DNA of 64,000 nt from Hoeflea sp. (GTDB taxonomy: Bacteria; Pseudomonadota; Alphaproteobacteria; Rhizobiales; Rhizobiaceae): the NCBI GenBank assembly GCA_965228785.1, contig CBDDIF010000002.1, positions 1,516,361-1,580,360 of the forward strand. The letters run 5' to 3'. Made by a program: the position numbers and the translations under genes. Shown one piece after another: positions 9,442-16,813 of this stretch (position 1 is the stretch's first letter; every line of letters begins with the position of its first letter). Below the pieces are notes generated by a model. That model ran no database searches, had not been told where the DNA came from, and saw only the letters and a list, made by a program, of their open reading frames with translations.

Positions 9442-11370
9442 ATGACGATACATGCCCAGAAGCCGGCCGCGGCAAAAGCGCCCCCGGCGAAGCTCCTGAA
9501 GAAAATCCACTCCCTGCAGAAGCGTGGCAAATTCCGCGAAAGCAGACCGCTATGCGACCGGCTCGCCGGACAGGGTTTTCTGAGCCCCGACTTGCTGCAC
9601 TTTCATGGCCTGGCCCTGCGGGCCGACAACGACCTGGAAGGCGCGCTCGTCAAGATTTTCGCTGCAACAGAGATGAAACCGAACGACGCGCTGATGCTGA
9701 ATTCGCTGGGCGTCGTTCTCCTGCAGATGAACGAGATCGAACCCGCGATCGAGCAGTTCAAACGGGCCACCAACGCCGACCAGAAACTCTACGAGGCCTG
9801 GAAGAATCTGGGCGTGGCGCTCAAAAAAGCAGAGCGCTATCCGGCAGCCCAGATGGCGTTCACCTGTGCCCATCACCTTGATCGCACCCAGCCGGAACCG
9901 GTGCTCAACATCGTTCACATGCTCATCGACAATCGGCACTACAAGAAAGCCGAGGAGTTGATGGACAAGCTGCTTGATGCGAGCAGCCAGGTGAGCCCAA
10001 GCTTCCTGCTTCAGCGGCTGCACATCGCTGCCCGCCTTGAGGATTTCGACTACATCACCGAGAATCGAGACCGGATCGACCGGGCGGGTCTCACCATCGA
10101 TGAACAGGCCGAGCTCGACAACATCTGGTCCTTCTACCTGCAGATCCACGGCCGCTACGACGAAGCGATCGCGGTGCTGGAAGACTGGGTCGACAGGGAG
10201 TCGGTCCACCAGGAACATTGCGTCACGCAGCTCGGGCTGTGCTACGCGGAAGCCGGCCGGATCGACGCGGGTATTGCCTACCACAAGGACCTGTTGGCCA
10301 AGAACCCCGATCACGTTGTCGGACGCTACAATCTCAGCATGCTGCAGATGAAGAGCGGCGATGTCGCTGAAGGCTTCGCAAACTACGAGGCGCGCTGGAA
10401 GCGGCGCGAGTTTCCTTCAAAACGCCGGGTGTTTGATGCTCCACGCTGGGAAGGCCAGCCACTCGAGGGCAAAAAGCTGCTCGTCTGGCGCGAACAGGGG
10501 ATCGGTGACGAAGTGCGGTTCGCATCCCTGTTGCCGGATCTTGAGACGTCCGGCGCTTCGGTGTCGTTCGAATGTACGCCCAAACTCGCACCGCTTTGGG
10601 AACGGTCCTTTCCCTGGGCAGCCATTGGGCACGAAGGCGAGACCGACTGCCGCGGTGAAGCAGAATACCGGGATTTCGATTATCAAATTCCGGCCGGTTC
10701 GCTGGCTACATTCCTGCGACCCTGCGTCGACGCGTTCAGCGAAAAACAGTCGGCCTGGATCCGACGCTATGGTGATGTGGAGCAGAATGTCCGCGAGCAA
10801 TTGGCGATCGGGCGCGACGAAACGCTCATCGGCGTGTGCTGGCGCTCCTCCTTCCGGGCCACCTCGCGAGAGCGCTATTTCCTCGGATGCGATCAGTTGG
10901 AACCGCTGAAGACGCTGCCGAACACCCGCTGGCTCAACGTGCAATACGATTGCAGCGACGAGGAAATCGAAACCGTCCGCAATCTCGGCCTTCCGCTGCA
11001 TCACTTCACCGACGTCGATCAGCGGGATGACCTGGTCAGCGCATGCGGCCTGATTGGCGCCTGCGACGTGGTGATTTCCGTGGGCGTTTCGGTCGCCGAC
11101 CTGGCGGCCGGTCTCGGCGTTCCCGTCGTTCAGTTCGGTCGCGAACAGTCCGAGATCTTCCTGGGCACAGATCATGTGCCGTGGTTCCCGACCTGCCTGT
11201 CCGTGCGGATGAAACCCTATGGCGGCGACGAGGCTATCGCGGATGTCATCGACCGGTGGCCGTCGATCCTTGAATGGGCAAAGGGTGTGACGACGGCAAA
11301 CAGGCAACCGTTGTCCGCAACGACCCCGCCCGCGAGCCTCAATCTTGAATACGAAGTCCTAAGGACATAG
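9442..11370 (+). CDS. TPR-repeat protein with C-terminal GT9 (heptosyltransferase)-like GT-B domain; candidate glycosyltransferase
   Basis: 642 aa. The N-terminal half has repeated TPR-like helices (..GALVKIFAATEMKPNDALMLNSLGVVLLQMNEIEPAIEQFKRA..). The C-terminal half has LLVWREQGIGDEVRFASLLPDL, typical of GT9-like domains. Confidence 0.6.
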   Translation: MTIHAQKPAAAKAPPAKLLKKIHSLQKRGKFRESRPLCDRLAGQGFLSPDLLHFHGLALRADNDLEGALVKIFAATEMKPNDALMLNSLGVVLLQMNEIEPAIEQFKRATNADQKLYEAWKNLGVALKKAERYPAAQMAFTCAHHLDRTQPEPVLNIVHMLIDNRHYKKAEELMDKLLDASSQVSPSFLLQRLHIAARLEDFDYITENRDRIDRAGLTIDEQAELDNIWSFYLQIHGRYDEAIAVLEDWVDRESVHQEHCVTQLGLCYAEAGRIDAGIAYHKDLLAKNPDHVVGRYNLSMLQMKSGDVAEGFANYEARWKRREFPSKRRVFDAPRWEGQPLEGKKLLVWREQGIGDEVRFASLLPDLETSGASVSFECTPKLAPLWERSFPWAAIGHEGETDCRGEAEYRDFDYQIPAGSLATFLRPCVDAFSEKQSAWIRRYGDVEQNVREQLAIGRDETLIGVCWRSSFRATSRERYFLGCDQLEPLKTLPNTRWLNVQYDCSDEEIETVRNLGLPLHHFTDVDQRDDLVSACGLIGACDVVISVGVSVADLAAGLGVPVVQFGREQSEIFLGTDHVPWFPTCLSVRMKPYGGDEAIADVIDRWPSILEWAKGVTTANRQPLSATTPPASLNLEYEVLRT

Positions 11371-11441: not shown

Positions 11442-12638
11442 TTACGGTGCCTGGACGATGCCTTCTCCGACATCTTCACGTTCGGCAGAGGCTACCAGTG
11501 CGCTACGGTCTGCGGTCGCCAGCAACTGGCCGGAAAGCACATCGCTGCGGATCCCTCCGCTTTCATCAAGCTGCTTCTGAGCCCAAAGGGCCGCAACACC
11601 GGCGACGTGCGGTGTGGCCATGCTGGTGCCACTCATACCGGTCAGGCCACCGCCGACCGCAGCGGAGATAACGTTGACGCCAGGGCCCGAAAGGTTGCAT
11701 TGCGTGTTGGAAAAACGAGCCACGTCATGGCCGCTTGATCCGCCCTCTGACAGCGCGCCGACAGACAAGATTCCGGTTCCGGCAGCAGGCGGGCTCACCG
11801 CAATTTCGAATTGCGGTCGTTCTGACTCATTGCCCGAGGCTGCAACGATCAGAGTGGCTTCCTGAATGGCATTCTGGCTTACGAGCAGATCCGCCAGGCG
11901 CGAGAACAGGTTGACATTCGCACGGTATTGCTCGAGCGCGATCGAAGTCGCCGGTTCTACTTGAAAGCCCGCGTCAACCAACTGTTTGACAAATCCGGGA
12001 AAATCGATCCCAAGGGACATCGAAACCACATTGGCGCCTTCGCGAACCGACCACTGAATGGCCTCGACCAGTTTGGCCGACGATCCACCTCCCTGCCCCA
12101 ATACTTTCCCTATGATAGCGTCGGTAACGCCGGTCGCCACGCCGATGCGCAATCCATTGACATCGCGACCAAAAATCGTTCCGGCGCAGTGAGTGCCGTG
12201 GCCATGCTGATCGTCATCGCCCTCGGCCGTGAAGTTCTTGCGGGTCAGATTGACACCGTTGAATGCTGGATGGTTCGGGTCAATTCCGGTATCGAGCACC
12301 GCGACCTTGATGCCCTCGCCATCAAACTGGGATTGAGGCGCTCCGACAGCTTGCACGCCCCAGGTCGCTCCTCCCGCCAGCGCGCTGGCGTCCGGTGGCG
12401 TCACATCCATTGGCTCAATCAATTGCAGCGGCATCGGTGCCGCTATTGCCTTTGTGCGGGGATCGCGGCGCAGATCGTCTCGTTCTGCCTTCGAAAGCGG
12501 CGCCACGGAAATGTCCAGCGTTTCCATGTTGGAGCTTGTGCTCGCACCAAGCGCCTCTGCCCCGGGCATGCCTAGATTGCCGGCCTCCGGAACGAACAGT
12601 CTTTCGGATCTCAATACGATAAAGTCCTGCTGCGTCAT
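11442..12638 (-). CDS. S8 family serine peptidase (subtilase) without a recognisable signal peptide
   Basis: Catalytic triad motifs VAVLDTGID (Asp), HGHGTHCAGTI (His) and GTSMATPHVAG (Ser). I chose the ATG at 12638 (MTQQDFIVLRSE..) because GGAGAG lies 4 nt upstream. Alternative starts are 12650 and 12692. Confidence 0.85.
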   Translation of the reverse strand: MTQQDFIVLRSERLFVPEAGNLGMPGAEALGASTSSNMETLDISVAPLSKAERDDLRRDPRTKAIAAPMPLQLIEPMDVTPPDASALAGGATWGVQAVGAPQSQFDGEGIKVAVLDTGIDPNHPAFNGVNLTRKNFTAEGDDDQHGHGTHCAGTIFGRDVNGLRIGVATGVTDAIIGKVLGQGGGSSAKLVEAIQWSVREGANVVSMSLGIDFPGFVKQLVDAGFQVEPATSIALEQYRANVNLFSRLADLLVSQNAIQEATLIVAASGNESERPQFEIAVSPPAAGTGILSVGALSEGGSSGHDVARFSNTQCNLSGPGVNVISAAVGGGLTGMSGTSMATPHVAGVAALWAQKQLDESGGIRSDVLSGQLLATADRSALVASAEREDVGEGIVQAP

Positions 12639-12801
12639 TTGGCTCTCCATCTCTGTATATTCGACTGAAGTTGCAGTGTTGGCCGGCCCCATCGGCCGCG
12701 GCCCCGTCTTGGGTGCCGCATTTTCGAACGATAGCGCGCAACGCTGTCGGACTATGTGAGTTTAGCCACATCAAAAGAAAAATGGTCACAGGCGACAAAT
12801 C

Positions 12802-12830
12802 GGTTGCTGTTTGCAACCGGAGCGTATAAA
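12802..12830 (+). promoter_or_regulatory. Promoter-like element with inverted repeat GGTTGC-N5-GCAACC, upstream of Y-RNA-like modules a+b
   Basis: ggttgctgtttgcaacc (12802-12818) overlaps a -35-like TTGCTG/GTTGCT. TATAAA at 12825-12830 follows at a 15-17 nt spacing. Module a begins about 11 nt after the -10. Confidence 0.4.
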
Positions 12831-12840
12831 CACCGCGCCT

Positions 12841-12898
12841 CCATTCGTGGCGAGGCGAAAGCTCCGGTTGAAACCGCTGTCAGCTTGTTCCCGAGTGG
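12841..12898 (+). ncRNA. Small Y-RNA-like stem-loop module a
   Basis: Closing helix CCATTCG/CGAGTGG, flanked by 5' TGGCGAGG and 3' TGTTCC, the signature shared by all five modules. Inner helix AAGCT/AGCTT. The loop contains GGTTGAAACC, as module c does. Confidence 0.5.
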
Positions 12899-12905
12899 CC
12901 CACAG

Positions 12906-13041
12906 CCGCAGGCGTGGCGTAGAACACGGTTACTTCGACTGTGAATCGAGAGGTTGTCGGTTCGAGCCCGACCCGGCCTGCCATGGGCCGGTAGCTCAAT
13001 TGGATAGAGCGCTTTACCGGTTCGCCTGTTCCCGCCTGCGG
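12906..13041 (+). ncRNA. yrlA: YrlA-like Y RNA (module b) with circularly permuted tRNA-like domain
   Basis: Perfect 9-bp closing helix CCGCAGGCG/CGCCTGCGG. T arm GTCGG-TTCGAGC-CCGAC at 12956-12972. 7-bp acceptor stem 12973-12979/12985-12991 with G-CCA retained in the capping loop. U8-A9 then D arm GCTC-AATTGGAT-AGAGC (12994-13010). Lies on the same strand upstream of the TROVE gene. Confidence 0.7.
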
Positions 13042-13105
13042 TGAGCCAACTCCATTCGTTCTGAGTTTGCTTCAGCCAGTCGAGCGGAATCTTTTTTCAT
13101 TTTCT

Positions 13106-13137
13106 ATGTTGCAATTTGCAACATAGGCAGATACATA
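13106..13137 (+). promoter_or_regulatory. Promoter-like TTGCAA-N17-TACATA embedded in a 19-nt palindrome, upstream of modules c+d
   Basis: atgttgcaa-t-ttgcaacat perfect 9-1-9 inverted repeat at 13106-13124. -35 TTGCAA at 13109-13114 and -10 TACATA at 13132-13137. A T-run at 13092-13097 just upstream may end the a+b transcript. Confidence 0.45.
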
Positions 13138-13145
13138 GCGCTCCG

Positions 13146-13216
13146 CCAATCGTGGTGAAGATGACGGTTACTTCATTCAGATTGAAACCAGACCGTCATC
13201 GCCTGTCCCCGAATGG
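13146..13216 (+). ncRNA. Small Y-RNA-like stem-loop module c (paralog of module a)
   Basis: Closing helix CCAATCG/CGAATGG (one mismatch), flanked by 5' TGGTGAAG and 3' TGTCCC. GGTG/CGCC mini-helix. 8-bp helix ATGACGGT/ACCGTCAT. The loop contains TACTTC and GATTGAAACC. Confidence 0.5.
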
Positions 13217-13221
13217 TTCAA

Positions 13222-13360
13222 GACCGCAGGCGTGGCGCAGATCGCAGATACTTCTTAATCTGTGGTCGCGGGTTCGAATCCCGCCGCTCCGAAAGGAGTG
13301 TAGCTCAGCCCGGTAGAGCAGCAGCACCCAAACTGTGGTCGCCTGTTCCCGCCTGCGGTC
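13222..13360 (+). ncRNA. yrlA: YrlA-like Y RNA (module d) with circularly permuted tRNA-like domain
   Basis: Perfect 11-bp closing helix GACCGCAGGCG/CGCCTGCGGTC. T arm GCGGG-TTCGAAT-CCCGC at 13268-13284. Acceptor-like stem CGCTCC/GGAGTG capped by a GAAA tetraloop (13285-13300). U8-A9 then D arm GCTC-AGCCCGGT-AGAGC (13301-13319). Confidence 0.7.
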
Positions 13361-13379
13361 CTGCCTTTTGTCGCATCCG

Positions 13380-13488
13380 CCCGTCCGGCGAGCGCGTGGC
13401 GTAGAAAACGGATACTTCGGTCATCCTTTAGCGGACGGGGTTCAACTCCCCAAGCCGTTTTCGAATGTTCCCGCGTTCGCCCGACGGG
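13380..13488 (+). ncRNA. Y-RNA-like module e (long closing helix, T-arm-like hairpin only)
   Basis: 17-position closing helix 13380-13396/13472-13488 with one C-C mismatch and one G-U. Same 5' TGGCGTAG and 3' TGTTCC signature. Inner helix GAAAACGG/CCGTTTTC. T-arm-like GGGG-TTCAACT-CCCC at 13437-13451. Ends 32 nt before the rsr ATG. Confidence 0.55.
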
Positions 13489-13520
13489 TCGGAAGCAATG
13501 AGTAACGATGGAGAAGAACG

Positions 13521-14819
13521 ATGCGCCTGAACATCGCGTCCCGCATTCCCGTCCGCCGCACCCATCAAGGTGCGCCGGCCAAGCACATCTCGCCGGAGGC
13601 GGCTCTTCGCCGCTCGGTTCTGTCGTGCCTGCTGTGGGAGAACGAGTTCTATGAGGACGGCCAGCACATCGCTGACCGTATCATCGAGCACGCCGCAGCG
13701 GTCGATCGCGAAACCGCATCGGCGCTGGCTGTGGAAGCACGTACCGTTTTCGGACTGCGCCACGCGCCGCTGATGCTGCTTCTCGACCTGATCCGCCGCG
13801 GCGGACCGGGCGTTGCGGACACAATCGCCGAAACCATCCGACGCGCCGACGAGATCACCGAACTGGTAGCGCTCTACTGGCGTGACGGCAAGCGGCCCTT
13901 GTCCAAGCAGATGAAGCTTGGATTGGCGAAGGCGTTCGGGAAGTTCTCCGAATACCAGCTGGCCAAGTACGACCGCGAAGGTCCGGTGCGGCTGCGCGAC
14001 GTGATGTTCCTCACCCACGCAAAGCCGCGGGATGCGGAACAGGCAGCACTGTTCATGCGGGTCGCGGACCGGTCGCTGAAGACTCCGGACACCTGGGAGG
14101 TCGCACTGTCGACCGGTCAGGACAAGAAGGCGTCATTCGAACGGCTGCTTCGCGAGGGCAAGCTCGGATATCTCGCCCTGCTGCGCAACCTGCGCAACAT
14201 GGCCGAGGCTGGCTGCGACCTGGAACTGGTCAAGGACGCCATCGTTGCCCGCAAAGGCGCCGACCTGGTCTTTCCGTTCCGCTACGTCGCTGCGGCCCGT
14301 GCCTGCCCGCAGCTCGAACCGGTCATAGACCAGGCGCTGTGTGAGGCCATTGCGTCAGCTCCACGGCTGACCGGCCGCACCATCGTGCTGGTCGACGTGT
14401 CCGGATCGATGAACTGCCGGCTGTCGGGGCGTTCCGACCTGACGCGAATGGACGCCGCCGCTGCACTGGCTTCGATCCTGCACGGCGAGCTTCGCCTGTT
14501 CACCTTTTCCACAGATGTGGTGGAAGTTCCGCCGCGGCGCGGCATGGCAGGCGTCGATGCGGTGGTGCAATCGCAACCACACCTGGGTACGCGGCTCGGC
14601 GCCGCGGTCAAGAAGGTGAACCGCCTGCCGCATGATCGGTTGATCGTCATTACCGACGAGCAGTCTCATGATGCGGTGCCGGACCCGAAGGCCGGACGAG
14701 CCTACATGATCAACGTCGGCTCCTACCGGAACGGCGTTGGTTATGGCCGCTGGACCCACATCGATGGGTTCTCGGAAGCCGTCATCCGCTTCATCACCGA
14801 GGTCGAGAATGACCGGTGA
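13521..14819 (+). CDS. rsr: Ro60-related protein (Rsr): TROVE domain plus vWA domain with MIDAS motif
   Basis: Matches Ro60 hallmarks: LGYLALLRNLRNM (cf. ALLRNL), FPFRYVAAA, IVLVDVSGSM (DxSxS MIDAS), LIVITDEQSH and a C-terminal GFSEAVIRFI. GGAGAAG RBS 6 nt upstream of the ATG. 432 aa. Confidence 0.85.
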   Translation: MRLNIASRIPVRRTHQGAPAKHISPEAALRRSVLSCLLWENEFYEDGQHIADRIIEHAAAVDRETASALAVEARTVFGLRHAPLMLLLDLIRRGGPGVADTIAETIRRADEITELVALYWRDGKRPLSKQMKLGLAKAFGKFSEYQLAKYDREGPVRLRDVMFLTHAKPRDAEQAALFMRVADRSLKTPDTWEVALSTGQDKKASFERLLREGKLGYLALLRNLRNMAEAGCDLELVKDAIVARKGADLVFPFRYVAAARACPQLEPVIDQALCEAIASAPRLTGRTIVLVDVSGSMNCRLSGRSDLTRMDAAAALASILHGELRLFTFSTDVVEVPPRRGMAGVDAVVQSQPHLGTRLGAAVKKVNRLPHDRLIVITDEQSHDAVPDPKAGRAYMINVGSYRNGVGYGRWTHIDGFSEAVIRFITEVENDR

Positions 14820-14997
14820 CGAGCTGAAACAGGCGGCAATCACACTCTTTGGCGAGCGCGGATGGCAATCCGCGCTCGCTCGCCATCTGGGCGTCGACCG
14901 CACCCAGATCTGGCGCTACGTCACAAACAACCGCGTCCCCGGTCCGGTCCGCGCCGCGGTGACCTGCTGGGTCAAACACGGGCCGCCGACGGACTGA
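14809..14997 (+). CDS. Small helix-turn-helix DNA-binding protein (Cro/YdaS-like), overlapping the rsr stop
   Basis: 62 aa: MTGDELKQAAITLFGERGWQSALARHLGVDRTQIWRYVTNNRVP.., with a plausible HTH at SALARHLGVDRTQIWRYV. The ATG at 14809 overlaps the rsr 3' end by 11 nt, suggesting translational coupling. The ORF-track start at 14737 lies inside rsr. Confidence 0.6.
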   Translation: MTGDELKQAAITLFGERGWQSALARHLGVDRTQIWRYVTNNRVPGPVRAAVTCWVKHGPPTD

Positions 14998-15101
14998 GCA
15001 CCCTGCCCTATTTCTTTCCCGGCCGCATTTGATCGCGGACTGCGTCTGTGCCATGAACCGGTTTCACAAACCGGGCGACACTCTCTCTTTCGGGAAGATC
15101 C

Positions 15102-15530
15102 ATGAAACTTGAATTCCACCACATCAACTTCGTGTCAGAGAACGTCGACCGGCTCCATGATTTCTACACGAAGGTCCTGAGATTGGACGATATTCCGCTC
15201 AGTCAGTTTCCAAGAACGGAAGAGACGGACGATACGGGATACGGCGGCAAGATTCGATTTGCGACCGAGGGCGGGATGCAGTTGCATCTGGCGGAGCGCA
15301 ATCTCGACGTGGCATTCAAGAATGGGCAGGTGATCAATCCAGTCGAACGCGGCCATATTGCGTTTCGCACCGATGATCTCGCCGCAGTAAAGGCCATGCT
15401 CGAAGAAAACGGGATCCACTATTCCGACTACGGCACCGCCTTCTCGAAGGAATGGCACCAGATTTTCTTCCATGATCCGGAGGGAAACGTGGTCGAGGTG
15501 CACCAGGAGGTCGCCACGATGGGCGATTGA
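15102..15530 (+). CDS. VOC (glyoxalase/bleomycin resistance/dioxygenase) family protein
   Basis: 142 aa. MKLEFHHINFVSENVDRLHDFYTKVLRL.. and ..GHIAFRTDDL..FFHDPEGNVVEV are typical VOC beta-alpha-beta-beta-beta modules. Confidence 0.8.
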   Translation: MKLEFHHINFVSENVDRLHDFYTKVLRLDDIPLSQFPRTEETDDTGYGGKIRFATEGGMQLHLAERNLDVAFKNGQVINPVERGHIAFRTDDLAAVKAMLEENGIHYSDYGTAFSKEWHQIFFHDPEGNVVEVHQEVATMGD

Positions 15531-15568: not shown

Positions 15569-16813
15569 TCACGCGATCGCCGCGGGATCCTCCTCAGTCT
15601 CAATTCGCTCCGGTCGCACACCGATCCCGACAATGCGGGCTGGAATGCGTCGCAGCACGGGAAACCAGCCGGCCAATCGCAACGGCAAGGGCGGGTTGAT
15701 GGTTTCGGATTCGCTCAGAAGTGGGCCGATGACGCGGTTCTGCAGCATGACCTGGAGGCGCTGGGTTACTTTTGCGGCAAATGCGCGGCGTTGTTGAACG
15801 CGGTCGAGATCGGCCGCTTCGACGGGACCGGCGCGCAGCTTGTGGGCTAAGAGGTTGGCCGTTGCCACGCCGTCCTGCACGGCCAGATTGACGCCGACGC
15901 CACCGATCGGTGACATGGCGTGGGCCGCATCGCCGATCATCAACAGGCCAGGCTCGTGCCACTTGTCCAGCCGGTCGACCTGCACCGTCAGCAGCTTGAT
16001 CTTGTCCCAGTCGTCGAGTTCACCGACGCGGTCTGCGAAGAAGGGTGCGATGGACAACAGGCTGGCGTGGAAGGCATCAAGCCCCCTGCCCTTGATCGGT
16101 TCGAAGTCGCCCTTGGCGATGACATAGGCTACCTGCCAATAGTCGCCGCGATTGAGCAGGATGGCGATGTGGCCTGCGGTGAAGAAGAATGTCGTCTTGT
16201 CAGGGTCAGCCGGCAGCCGCGACAGTCGAAACCACAAAACGTCCATCGGCGCGCCGAGCGATTTGGCCTGCAGACCGGCCTGCTCGCGCATCAGCGAGTG
16301 GCGTCCGTCCGCGGCAATCACCAGGTCTGCCCGGATTTCGAGCGGGCCATCGGGCGTCGTTGTCGTCACGCCCACCACCCTACCCTTCTCCGTGATGAGA
16401 TCGGTGGCCTCGGTCTGCATGCGCAGGTCGAAGGTCCGGTATCGCCGGCCGAGGCCCGCCAGAAAATCGAGAAAGTCCCATTGCGGCATCAAGGCGATGT
16501 ATTTGCAACGCGTGGGCAAGTGGCGAAAATCCACGGCCTCGCTGTCGAAGTCACCGAAGCGGAGGCCGATCACCGGAGTTTTCTCGTGCGGCAGTTTCAG
16601 GAATGCGTCCAGAACCCCGAGCTGATGCATCAACTCCAATGTCGATGGGTGGATGGTATCGCCGCGAAAATCGCGGAAGAAATCCGCGTGCTTTTCAAGA
16701 ACGGTGACGTCGACGCCTGCCCGCGCCAGCAGCAGGCCTGTCATCACTCCGGCTGGACCGCCACCGACGATGCAACAGCGGGTTTTGATTGATAAGGACT
16801 CTGCGTCCGTCAC
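15569..16813 (-). CDS. FAD-dependent monooxygenase/oxidoreductase
   Basis: CCIVGGGPAGVMTGLLLARAGVDVTVLEK dinucleotide-binding motif and later GDAAHAMSPIGGVGVN. 414 aa. Its start overlaps the stop of the upstream permease gene by 4 nt. Confidence 0.85.
   Translation of the reverse strand: MTDAESLSIKTRCCIVGGGPAGVMTGLLLARAGVDVTVLEKHADFFRDFRGDTIHPSTLELMHQLGVLDAFLKLPHEKTPVIGLRFGDFDSEAVDFRHLPTRCKYIALMPQWDFLDFLAGLGRRYRTFDLRMQTEATDLITEKGRVVGVTTTTPDGPLEIRADLVIAADGRHSLMREQAGLQAKSLGAPMDVLWFRLSRLPADPDKTTFFFTAGHIAILLNRGDYWQVAYVIAKGDFEPIKGRGLDAFHASLLSIAPFFADRVGELDDWDKIKLLTVQVDRLDKWHEPGLLMIGDAAHAMSPIGGVGVNLAVQDGVATANLLAHKLRAGPVEAADLDRVQQRRAFAAKVTQRLQVMLQNRVIGPLLSESETINPPLPLRLAGWFPVLRRIPARIVGIGVRPERIETEEDPAAIA

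What the first reader, a model, noticed from the sequence alone, without database searches (positions are those of the whole stretch)
12802..14997. Ro60/TROVE (rsr) locus preceded by a tandem array of five Y-RNA-like modules
**What the sequence shows.** ORF 13521-14819 carries Ro60 hallmarks: ALLRNL-type motif, FPFRY, a DVSGSM MIDAS motif in a vWA domain, and ITDEQSH. The roughly 830-nt gap upstream is the only long region of the window without a credible ORF. It contains five consecutive, same-strand, stem-closed modules:
- a, 12841-12898
- b, 12906-13041
- c, 13146-13216
- d, 13222-13360
- e, 13380-13488

They are ordered small+large, small+large, then single. The a-b gap is 7 nt, the c-d gap 5 nt and the d-e gap 19 nt. 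Module e ends 32 nt before the rsr ATG. That spacing suggests polycistronic precursors that are then processed.

**Established knowledge.** Bacterial Rsr binds Y RNAs encoded next to rsr. YrlA-type Y RNAs carry a tRNA-like domain.

**Why it is unusual.** The descriptions I know (Deinococcus; the Salmonella rsr-yrlB-yrlA-rtcBA locus) have one or two adjacent Y RNAs. Five modules in three structural classes in one array looks unusually expanded.
Basis: partly seen in the sequence, partly recalled or inferred. Interest (0 to 1): 0.85.

Follow-up and report, generated by a model that had tools for sequence, protein, structure and literature searches.

The report
Ro60 gene with upstream Y-RNA array
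A bacterial relative of the human Ro60 autoantigen sits just downstream of four intact and one decayed Y-RNA-like genes, but such arrays prove to be the normal layout for this branch of the family rather than an exceptional expansion.

Summary
ORF 13521-14819 is a short (432 aa) Ro60/TROVE+vWA protein, and the 828-nt gap upstream holds five same-strand, stem-closed modules.

- Modules b and d are YrlA-type Y RNAs. They have a Ro-binding stem and a permuted tRNA-like domain, and hit Rfam YrlA at E 6e-10 and 2e-8, below the curated cut-off.
- Module e has the same stem with only a T-arm.
- Module c is a 71-nt tRNA-less Y RNA.
- Module a is a decayed copy of c that has lost its inner stem.

My model of the shared Ro-binding module found 267 hits in the window plus 80 related loci. 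All lie on the Ro60 gene's strand and upstream of it, and covariation is strong.

The "unusually expanded" claim fails. The modal count is 3-4 modules per locus, 18 of 81 sequences have 5-6, and related phages carry 5 and 8.

Two extras:
- a Cro-like helix-turn-helix (HTH) gene overlaps the Ro60 gene's stop codon;
- a TTGCA-N3-TGCAA palindrome sits about 37 nt upstream of a and of c, and tracks with that HTH gene across loci. It is a candidate operator.

Verdict: a real, correctly interpreted new member of a known kind. Interest is moderate.

The parts
12804..12816 (.). Palindrome TTGCTGTTTGCAA (one mismatch to TTGCA-N3-TGCAA). Candidate operator overlapping a -35-like TTGCTG of promoter P1. 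TATAAA lies at 12825-12830.
   Evidence: The repeat with 13108-13158 is. It is conserved in L001-L003. The palindrome co-occurs with the HTH gene across loci. Its role as promoter or operator is inferred; the strict sigma-70 scan found none.
12841..12898 (+). Module a: a degenerate small Y-RNA-like element. It keeps the outer stem CCAUUCG/CGAGUGG, the bulged U, GG:CC and the GCUUGUU box. It has lost the stem-2 5' strand and UUACUUC.
   Evidence: R2 gives 17.4 bits with the interior skipped. Fold z is -0.33. The orthologous copy is intact in L002 (70.3 bits) and weaker in L001 (34.2 bits).
12906..13041 (+). Module b: a YrlA-type Y RNA. Ro-binding box GUGG-CGUA lies at 12914-12921. T arm 12956-12972; 7-bp acceptor-like stem 12973-12991; UA 12992-12993; D arm 12994-13010; 3' box GCCUGUUCC 13024-13032.
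   Evidence: Rfam YrlA 44.5 bits, E 1.8e-8. R1 143.6 bits. R2 47.6 bits. Fold z -2.73.
13090..13104 (+). T-rich tract (TCTTTTTTCATTTTC) between b and the second promoter. It could be a weak stop signal or an UP-like element.
   Evidence: Conserved in L001, L002 and L004; a T-run is also present in L003. No canonical terminator hairpin was found.
13104..13126 (.). Perfect 23-nt palindrome CTATGTTGCAATTTGCAACATAG, with core TTGCAATTTGCAA at 13109-13121. Candidate operator and -35 of promoter P2.
   Evidence: Inverted repeat I6. Invariant in L001-L004. It sits 37 nt upstream of module c, as in other HTH-bearing loci.
13146..13216 (+). Module c: an intact 71-nt small Y RNA without a tRNA-like domain. 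Layout: stem 1, bulged U, GG:CC, UGAA loop, 8-bp stem 2, UUACUUC, short hairpin.
   Evidence: R2 69.7 bits, E 4.6e-14. Fold z -3.12. The architecture is shared by 21 sequences from several phyla and shows covariation.
13222..13360 (+). Module d: the second YrlA-type Y RNA. T arm 13268-13284; 6-bp acceptor-like stem capped by GAAA 13285-13300; UA 13301-13302; D arm 13303-13319.
   Evidence: Rfam YrlA 49.5 bits, E 6.2e-10. R1 132.8 bits. R2 44.1 bits. Fold z -5.47.
13380..13488 (+). Module e: a mid-size Y RNA with a long closing stem, the same Ro-binding box, and a T-arm only (GGGG-UUCAACU-CCCC, 13437-13451). It ends 32 nt before the Ro60 ATG.
   Evidence: R2 53.1 bits, E 6.8e-10. R1 42.7 bits. 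Fold z -3.78. Conserved in L001-L004 with compensatory changes visible in L003.
13521..14819 (+). rsr-like gene: a 432-aa Ro60/TROVE + vWA (MIDAS DVSGS) protein of the short, phage-related clade. GGAG ribosome-binding site at 13510-13513.
   Evidence: Pfam. Profile hit to Thermus phage phiLo Ro60, E 6.7e-36. For the AF2 model, the top 13 PDB matches are all Ro60. PHROG 850, 1.6e-51.
14809..14997 (+). 62-aa Cro/YdaS-like helix-turn-helix protein. Its ATG overlaps the Ro60 gene's stop codon. Candidate regulator of the locus.
   Evidence: Pfam YdaS_toxin 25.2 bits, below the cut-off of 30, plus other weak HTH hits. PHROG 3626, 9.4e-8. Conserved in this position in 20 of the 80 related loci.

Best explanation
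This is a Ro60 (Rsr-like) ribonucleoprotein locus.

**Transcription (inferred).** Two sigma-70-like promoters each overlap a TTGCA-N3-TGCAA palindrome.
- One drives a-b.
- The other drives c-d-e-rsr-HTH.

**Processing (inferred).** The transcripts are cut and trimmed into separate Y RNAs. Each is closed by pairing of its own 5' and 3' ends.

**The shared protein-binding module (shown by sequence and covariation).** In order it consists of:
- a 7-13-bp terminal stem;
- a bulged U;
- a GG:CC step;
- an asymmetric internal loop, 5' YGNA (the CGAA-type motif) opposite about 7 nt ending in UU;
- an 8-bp second stem;
- UUACUUC.

**Binding (inferred).** The 432-aa Ro60 ring binds this module, by homology with Xenopus, Deinococcus, Salmonella and Thermus phage phiLo Ro60.

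**Distal ends.** They differ between modules.
- b and d carry a tRNA mimic: V hairpin, T arm, acceptor-like stem, UA, D arm.
- e carries a T arm only.
- c carries a short hairpin.

I infer that these ends tether Ro60 to different partners, such as PNPase or tRNA-recognising factors, or gate its cavity.

**Remaining parts.**
- Module a is a decaying duplicate of c.
- The small HTH protein encoded after rsr probably binds the palindromes and sets expression of the whole locus (inferred).
For: **Protein**
- TROVE and vWA domains with the MIDAS motif.
- A full-length profile match to phage phiLo Ro60.
- A predicted fold whose 13 best PDB matches are all Ro60.

**RNA**
- YrlA hits for d and b (E 6.2e-10 and 1.8e-8).
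- R1 (large module) found 209 hits and R2 (Ro-binding module) found 267 hits in 771 kb searched on both strands. Every hit is on the Ro60 gene's strand and upstream of it.
- On the small modules, 89.6% of cells pair against 41-55% when partners are slid, and 13 of 17 pairs show compensatory change.
- On 148 distinct R1 matches (mostly full-length large modules), 94.4% pair against 40-47%, and 31 of 32 pairs show compensatory change.
- The five-module layout is conserved in L001-L003, with compensatory changes in stem 1.

**Regulator**
- The HTH gene is translationally coupled to rsr and conserved in 20 of the 80 related loci.
- In HTH-bearing loci, 24 of 32 palindromes lie within 80 nt upstream of a module. 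In loci without the HTH the figure is 2 of 16.

**Literature**
- Ro60 binds Y RNAs encoded next to its gene in Deinococcus, Salmonella, M. smegmatis (PMC4201824) and phage phiLo (PMC12135203).
Against: - There are no expression, end-mapping or binding data for this organism or this protein clade.
- b and d fall below Rfam's YrlA cut-off, and the protein fails the NCBIfam Rsr equivalog model (12.2 bits against 900).
- The published GNCGAAN0-1G motif is matched only with one mismatch in b, c, d and e.
- The consensus scans found no canonical promoter or terminator, so the transcription units are conjecture.
- My covariation alignments were fitted to the proposed structure, which inflates the pairing percentages.
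- The partner proteins of the distal domains are unknown even in the model organisms.
Confidence: 0.8

Rival explanations
1. Some or all modules act in cis as a structured leader of the Ro60 mRNA rather than as free Y RNAs. An example would be feedback sites where the protein binds its own transcript. Module e, 32 nt from the ATG, is the main candidate.
For: - No promoter or terminator was detected between c, d, e and rsr.
- Many related loci also have a module ending 30-60 nt before the start codon.
Against: - a-b has its own promoter-like element and is separated from rsr by a second one.
- In Acidobacteriota the arrays lie 1.5-3.5 kb upstream, with a protein gene in between.
- Every module is closed by its own terminal stem, like processed Y RNAs.
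- In studied species such upstream elements are stable RNAs bound by Rsr (PMC4201824).
- The two roles are not mutually exclusive.
Confidence: 0.12
2. The modules are relics of tRNA genes or tandem tRNA pseudogenes with no function of their own.
For: - There is a weak Rfam tRNA hit at 12910-12980 (24.6 bits, cut-off 29).
- Equivalent elements in two phage records are annotated as tRNA-Thr and tRNA-Gln.
Against: - ARAGORN finds no tRNA in the window.
- The arm order is permuted (T, acceptor-like, D) and there is no anticodon arm.
- c has no tRNA part at all but shares the conserved closing module.
- There is extensive compensatory change across phyla.
- The strand and position are strictly linked to the TROVE gene.
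Confidence: 0.03
3. The cassette (Y-RNA array, short Ro60, Cro-like HTH) is a domesticated phage module. Its main role would be in phage-host conflict, for example redirecting PNPase or tRNA-targeting enzymes, rather than housekeeping RNA quality control.
For: - The same protein clade, at about 61% identity and with 5-8 upstream modules, occurs in Xanthomonas, Brevundimonas and Caulobacter phages.
- The closest solved structure is a phage Ro60 that attenuates host PNPase (PMC12135203).
- Both proteins match PHROG families.
Against: - The window's flanking genes (TPR protein, S8 peptidase, FAD monooxygenase) are not phage-like.
- Upstream flanking sequence recurs at matching offsets in L001 and L004, which hints at a shared chromosomal context; I did not test flank synteny directly.
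- There is no PADLOC hit for the Ro60 protein.
- This rival concerns biological role, not molecular mechanism, and is compatible with the best explanation.
Confidence: 0.15

Closest known systems
Salmonella Typhimurium rsr-yrlB-yrlA-rtcBA and the YrlA family (Rfam RF02553; Chen et al. 2014, PMC4201824)
   Same: - A Ro60 ortholog with adjacent same-strand Y RNAs.
- One class has a permuted tRNA mimic (T arm, acceptor-like stem, UA, D arm) on a Ro-binding stem.
- A second, smaller Y RNA lies beside it.
   Different: - There are no rtcBA or RtcR/sigma-54 genes; a Cro-like HTH and a palindrome take their place.
- The protein is 432 aa and fails the NCBIfam Rsr equivalog.
- The RNAs lie upstream of the gene, number 4-5, and score below the Rfam cut-off.
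- An extra outer stem and a conserved 3' box (UGUUCC) are present.
Mycobacterium smegmatis YrlA/YrlB (PMC4201824)
   Same: - The Y RNAs are encoded 5' of rsr.
- YrlA has a 7-bp acceptor-like stem, as module b does.
- YrlB has only a T arm, as module e does.
   Different: - Two RNAs there, not five modules.
[quoted passage not shown]
Thermus phage phiLo Ro60 with Yrl1 and Yrl2 (PMC12135203; PDB 9KOP, 9L5Y)
   Same: - It is the closest solved relative of the protein (E 6.7e-36, TM 0.71).
- Y-RNA-like genes with a CGAA-type internal-loop motif lie upstream of the gene.
   Different: - It is a 500-aa phage protein with only 26% identity.
- It has two RNAs, and no tRNA-like domain is described for them.
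Caulobacter phage CcrColossus and Xanthomonas phage TROVE loci
   Same: - The same short TROVE clade (59-62% identity).
- Contiguous same-strand arrays of large and small modules directly upstream (8 and 5 modules).
   Different: - They are phage genomes.
- No overlapping HTH gene follows the TROVE gene.
- The modules there are unannotated or annotated as tRNA.
Deinococcus radiodurans rsr with Yrn1, Yrn2 and RNAs a, b, d
   Same: - Several small RNAs are encoded upstream of rsr.
- The Ro60-Y RNA-PNPase (RYPER) paradigm supplies the mechanistic model.
   Different: - The Yrn1 tRNA-like part has a different arm order and a separate origin.
- The protein belongs to the longer, canonical Rsr type.

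Membership tests
Ro60 / Rsr (TROVE + vWA ring protein) | TROVE domain above Pfam's cut-off | tested here: met
   PF05731 scores 42.1 bits against 23, although only residues 186-235 align.
Ro60 / Rsr (TROVE + vWA ring protein) | C-terminal vWA domain with a MIDAS DxSxS motif | tested here: met
   VWA_CoxE scores 27.4 bits against 26.4. DVSGS and ITDEQ are in the translation.
Ro60 / Rsr (TROVE + vWA ring protein) | Overall HEAT-repeat ring plus vWA fold like solved Ro60 structures | tested here: met
   The AF2 model has pLDDT 76.9 and pTM 0.74. Its top 13 Foldseek PDB hits are all Ro60, with TMq 0.59-0.71. The profile matches phiLo Ro60 across residues 12-430. This rests on a predicted model.
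Ro60 / Rsr (TROVE + vWA ring protein) | Match to the NCBIfam Rsr equivalog model NF041674 | tested here: not met
   12.2 bits against a cut-off of 900. The protein belongs to a shorter, phage-related TROVE clade and is not an Rsr equivalog.
Ro60 / Rsr (TROVE + vWA ring protein) | Binds Y RNAs and misfolded RNA ends | not testable with these tools
   Needs RIP or gel-shift experiments.
YrlA Y RNA (Rfam RF02553) | Score at or above the Rfam gathering threshold | tested here: not met
   d scores 49.5 bits and b 44.5 bits against 69; E-values are 6.2e-10 and 1.8e-8. No YrlA match reached the threshold in the 16 related loci either.
YrlA Y RNA (Rfam RF02553) | tRNA-like effector domain: T arm, acceptor-like stem, UA linker and D arm, in that order, on a stem formed by the 5' and 3' ends | tested here: met
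   b and d have GGUUCGA T loops, a 6-7-bp acceptor-like stem, UA, and GUAGCUCA..GGUAGAGC D arms. Covariation supports all helices. c, e and a do not meet this feature.
YrlA Y RNA (Rfam RF02553) | GNCGAAN0-1G motif on the 5' strand of the Ro-binding stem (Chen 2014) | tested here: inconclusive
   The window has GGCGUAG (b, e), GGCGCAG (d) and GGUGAAG (c), each one mismatch off. The exact GGCGAAG occurs in L003 b and in many related small modules.
YrlA Y RNA (Rfam RF02553) | Encoded within 4 kb of, and on the same strand as, the Ro60 gene | tested here: met
   All modules lie 32-680 nt upstream on the + strand. The same holds for 267 of 267 R2 hits.
YrlA Y RNA (Rfam RF02553) | Expressed, bound by Rsr, modified by TruB and DusA | not testable with these tools
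   Experimental.
tRNA genes | Cloverleaf with anticodon arm detected by tRNA finders | tested here: not met
   ARAGORN finds none. Rfam tRNA scores 24.6 bits against 29. The arm order is permuted.
YrlB-type second Y RNA | A smaller Rsr-bound RNA encoded next to YrlA that lacks the full tRNA mimic | tested here: inconclusive
   c and e fit by position and architecture. The family is defined by immunoprecipitation, and no sequence model exists to test homology.

The most novel reading that the evidence does not exclude
The short, phage-shared Ro60 clade may work with a combinatorial set of Y RNAs.
- There are three conserved classes: about 70 nt with a hairpin only, about 90-110 nt with a T arm only, and about 130-140 nt with a full tRNA mimic.
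- All classes share one Ro-binding module, and each would route the same ring protein to a different partner.
- In Alphaproteobacteria the set would be switched by a dedicated Cro-like repressor acting on TTGCA-N3-TGCAA operators.

The small and mid-size classes are the kind of Y RNA that Chen et al. (2014) said had eluded bioinformatic discovery. Here they become searchable across phyla and phages.
Probability: 0.3. Interest if true: 0.6.

Novelty: new member of a known kind. Interest (0 to 1): 0.4.

Why it matters
**For annotation**
- Bacterial Y RNAs have been studied in three species, and their partners are mostly unknown.
- This locus and its relatives are invisible to threshold-based annotation.
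  - The RNAs fall below Rfam's YrlA cut-off.
  - The protein fails the NCBIfam Rsr model.
  - In two phage records, a YrlA-like module is annotated as a tRNA.

**For discovery**
- A simple conserved Ro-binding module identifies several Y RNAs per locus, including tRNA-less ones, in Alpha- and Gammaproteobacteria, Acidobacteriota and phages.
- That gives a concrete search model.
- It also gives a tractable hypothesis: one protein with several adaptor RNAs.

**For regulation**
- The HTH and palindrome link suggests a regulatory circuit for Ro60 other than RtcR.

None of this overturns current understanding. It extends it.

Tried and rejected
**Searches that found nothing**
- Rfam at gathering thresholds on the whole window: no hits. 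Only the E-value mode on the 911-nt region exposed YrlA.
- ARAGORN: no tRNA or tmRNA.
- Consensus promoter and terminator scan of 12600-15200: none.
- Folding of the b-c spacer and the e-rsr spacer showed no convincing terminator. The transcription units therefore rest on the conserved palindrome and -10-like hexamers alone.
- PADLOC: no defence-system hit for the Ro60 protein, and only a marginal one for the HTH.

**Approaches abandoned**
- Loose regex searches for the 5' box were non-specific across the window. I replaced them with covariance models.

**Structural alternative rejected**
- I considered pairing GGCG with the 3' CGCC instead of GG with the CC of UUCC.
- The 3' loop positions vary freely (GCCU, GAAC, AUUU, ACCA) while GG and CC are near-invariant.
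- L034 also shows a compensating GC:GC.

**Literature**
- The 2020 Annual Review on bacterial Ro60 is not held, and Chen 2014's supplementary tables are not held.
- So I could not see how many YrlA copies per genome were already tabulated.


Full report

Yes. It passes Pfam's cut-offs for TROVE and for a vWA domain.

The 828 nt between the divergent S8 peptidase gene (11442-12692, minus strand) and the ATG contain repeated boxes:
- a 5' box, CGTGGCGTAGAAnACGGnTACTTC, four times;
- a 3' box, TCGCCTGTTCCCGCCTGCG, four times;
- a duplication of the unit 12803-12936 at 13108-13254.

Folding gives stem-closed structures. They are better than shuffled sequence for b, c, d and e (z -2.7 to -5.5) but not for a (z -0.33).

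**2. What are the modules?**

Known-family searches gave the following.
- Rfam at curated thresholds finds nothing in the window, and ARAGORN finds no tRNA.
- A sensitive scan of the region gives YrlA (RF02553) at 13241-13342 (49.5 bits, E 6.2e-10) and at 12926-13038 (44.5 bits, E 1.8e-8). Both are below the gathering score of 69.
- Both b and d show the YrlA hallmarks: a GGUUCGA T arm, an acceptor-like stem, the UA linker, and a GUAGCUCA...GGUAGAGC D arm, in that permuted order.

I then fetched 80 loci that encode relatives of the protein. They come from Alphaproteobacteria, a few Gammaproteobacteria, Acidobacteriota and others. The closest are Hoeflea/Rhizobiaceae MAGs at 85-98% identity.

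In L001-L003 the a-b-c-d-e layout is conserved. Stem 1 shows compensatory changes, for example CCGCAGGCG/CGCCUGCGG in the window against CUGCGGGCG/CGCCCGCAG in L003.

*Model R1.* I built this covariance model from b and d and their orthologs.
- It finds 209 hits at E <= 0.1 in 771 kb searched on both strands.
- All are on the Ro60 gene's strand.
- In the window it hits b (143.6 bits), d (132.8) and e (42.7).

*Small modules.* Small hits from several phyla share one precise architecture:
- a 7-bp stem;
- a bulged U;
- GG:CC;
- an internal loop, 5' YGNA opposite 7 nt;
- an 8-bp stem;
- UUACUUC;
- a variable hairpin.

On 21 such sequences, 89.6% of cells pair against 41-55% when partners are slid, and 13 of 17 pairs show compensatory change.

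*Model R2.* I built this model of the Ro-binding module from those 21 sequences.
- It finds 267 hits at E <= 0.05.
- Again all are on the plus strand, and all are upstream of the Ro60 gene.
- In the window it hits c (69.7 bits), e (53.1), b (47.6) and d (44.1), and nothing else in 64 kb.
- With filters off, a scores 17.4 bits, and only its outer stem and boxes match.
- Comparison with L002, where a is intact (70.3 bits), shows the window's a has lost the stem-2 5' strand and UUACUUC.

On the 148 distinct R1 matches (mostly full-length large modules), 94.4% of cells pair against 40-47% when slid, and 31 of 32 pairs show compensatory change. These alignments were fitted to the model's structure, which inflates the pairing percentages.

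The YGNA loop corresponds to the published GNCGAAN0-1G / CGAA Ro-binding motif (PMC4201824, PMC12135203).
- It is exact in L003 b (GGCGAAG).
- It is one mismatch off in the window's b, c, d and e.

**3. The protein**

- A profile of the family matches only one solved protein by sequence: Ro60 of Thermus phage phiLo (E 6.7e-36 over residues 12-430). That protein forms the canonical ring, binds two upstream Y-RNA-like RNAs, and forms a complex with PNPase (PMC12135203).
- An AlphaFold model (pLDDT 76.9) has all 13 of its best PDB matches in Ro60 structures from phage, Deinococcus, Xenopus and human.
- It does not match NCBIfam's Rsr equivalog (12.2 bits against 900). It does match PHROG 850 along its full length (1.6e-51).
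- Homologs at 58-62% identity occur in Xanthomonas, Brevundimonas and Caulobacter phages.

So this is a Ro60 homolog of a short, phage-shared clade, not a canonical Rsr.

**4. Is five unusual?**

No. R2 counts per locus, for the window plus 80 loci, are 0:3, 1:7, 2:13, 3:19, 4:21, 5:15 and 6:3. Several of the zeros and ones are loci cut off close to the gene.

Dyads of a small and a large module 2-12 nt apart are common. Xanthomonas phage 10KY502B has five contiguous modules, and Caulobacter phage CcrColossus has eight.

Five exceeds the one or two characterised experimentally. It is nevertheless ordinary for this clade, and Chen et al. (2014) already reported multiple YrlA-like sequences near some Ro60 genes (355 in 276 genomes).

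**5. Regulation (inferred)**

- A 62-aa Cro/YdaS-like HTH gene starts at an ATG that overlaps the Ro60 stop codon. It is conserved there in 20 of the 80 related loci.
- A palindrome, TTGCA-N3-TGCAA, lies 37 nt upstream of a and of c. At 13104-13126 it is a perfect 23-mer.
- In HTH-bearing loci, 24 of 32 occurrences lie within 80 nt upstream of a module. In loci without the HTH the figure is 2 of 16.
- This co-occurrence suggests the HTH is the operator-binding regulator and that the palindrome overlaps the -35 of two promoters.
- No canonical promoter or terminator was found by consensus scan.

**6. Mechanism and comparison**

The best-supported reading has four parts.
- Two transcription units, a-b and c-d-e-rsr-HTH, are processed into four functional Y RNAs.
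- All four share one Ro60-binding module.
- Their distal domains differ: a full tRNA mimic, a T arm only, or a hairpin. They would act as adaptors or gates for the Ro60 ring.
- Module a is a decaying duplicate.

This works like the Salmonella, M. smegmatis, Deinococcus and phiLo systems. It differs from them in protein clade, in module number and position, in a conserved outer stem and 3' box, and in the likely regulator.

Membership of the curated YrlA and Rsr models fails on score thresholds, while the structural and contextual features are met.

**7. Verdict**

It is a new member of a known kind. The claim of exceptional expansion is not supported.

The comparative by-products give it moderate interest:
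- a searchable Ro-binding module;
- conserved tRNA-less classes;
- the HTH and palindrome link.

Noticed in passing
L081 2831-2898 (Xanthomonas phage 10KY502B); L082 2131-2198 (Caulobacter phage CcrColossus): Features annotated as tRNA-Thr and tRNA-Gln in these phage records lie inside YrlA-like modules (R1/R2 hits 2825-2960 and 2120-2298) just upstream of the TROVE gene. They are probably tRNA-like domains of Y RNAs mis-annotated as tRNAs.
   Followed up: partly
L043 2451-3836; L055 1605-2906 (Acidobacteriota loci): A BCS1_N + AAA ATPase gene sits on the same strand between the main Y-RNA array and the last module plus TROVE gene. In L043, and in L080, real tRNA genes lie just upstream of the arrays. 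I have not seen this gene association with Ro60 described.
   Followed up: partly
L001, L003, L005-L007, L009, L010, L012, L015, L017, L019, L027, L036, L043, L055, L080: Rfam at gathering thresholds reported no YrlA match in any of these 16 loci, although R1 and R2 place roughly 30 large YrlA-like modules in them. The whole clade is therefore invisible to threshold-based ncRNA annotation.
   Followed up: yes
window 12973-12991: Module b's acceptor-like stem is 7 bp (CCGGCCU/GGGCCGG) and is closed by the loop GCCAU, which reads as a discriminator-like G followed by CCA. M. smegmatis YrlA, with a 7-bp stem, is cleaved there by RNase P and receives CCA. The loop is GUCAAU in L003, so the CCA may be coincidence.
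   Followed up: partly
L003 3424-3562 and 3716-3860, compared with window 12904-13044 and 13220-13362: The two large-module paralogs are in swapped order in L003. L003 b resembles L001's d, and L003 d resembles the window's b. This suggests recombination or gene conversion between the duplicated units.
   Followed up: no
window 11442-12692 (-) and 9442-11370 (+): The neighbours upstream are an S8 subtilase, transcribed divergently from the array, and beyond it a 642-aa TPR protein. The subtilase hits the PADLOC 'subtilase' model (2e-19) and weakly IetS. I did not examine whether this is a defence-type pair.
   Followed up: no
window 15055-15078: Hairpin CCGGTTT-CAC-AAACCGG in the 570-nt gap between the HTH gene (+ strand) and the convergent FAD monooxygenase gene (15569-16813, - strand). 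It may be a shared terminator. The consensus terminator scan did not pick it up.
   Followed up: no
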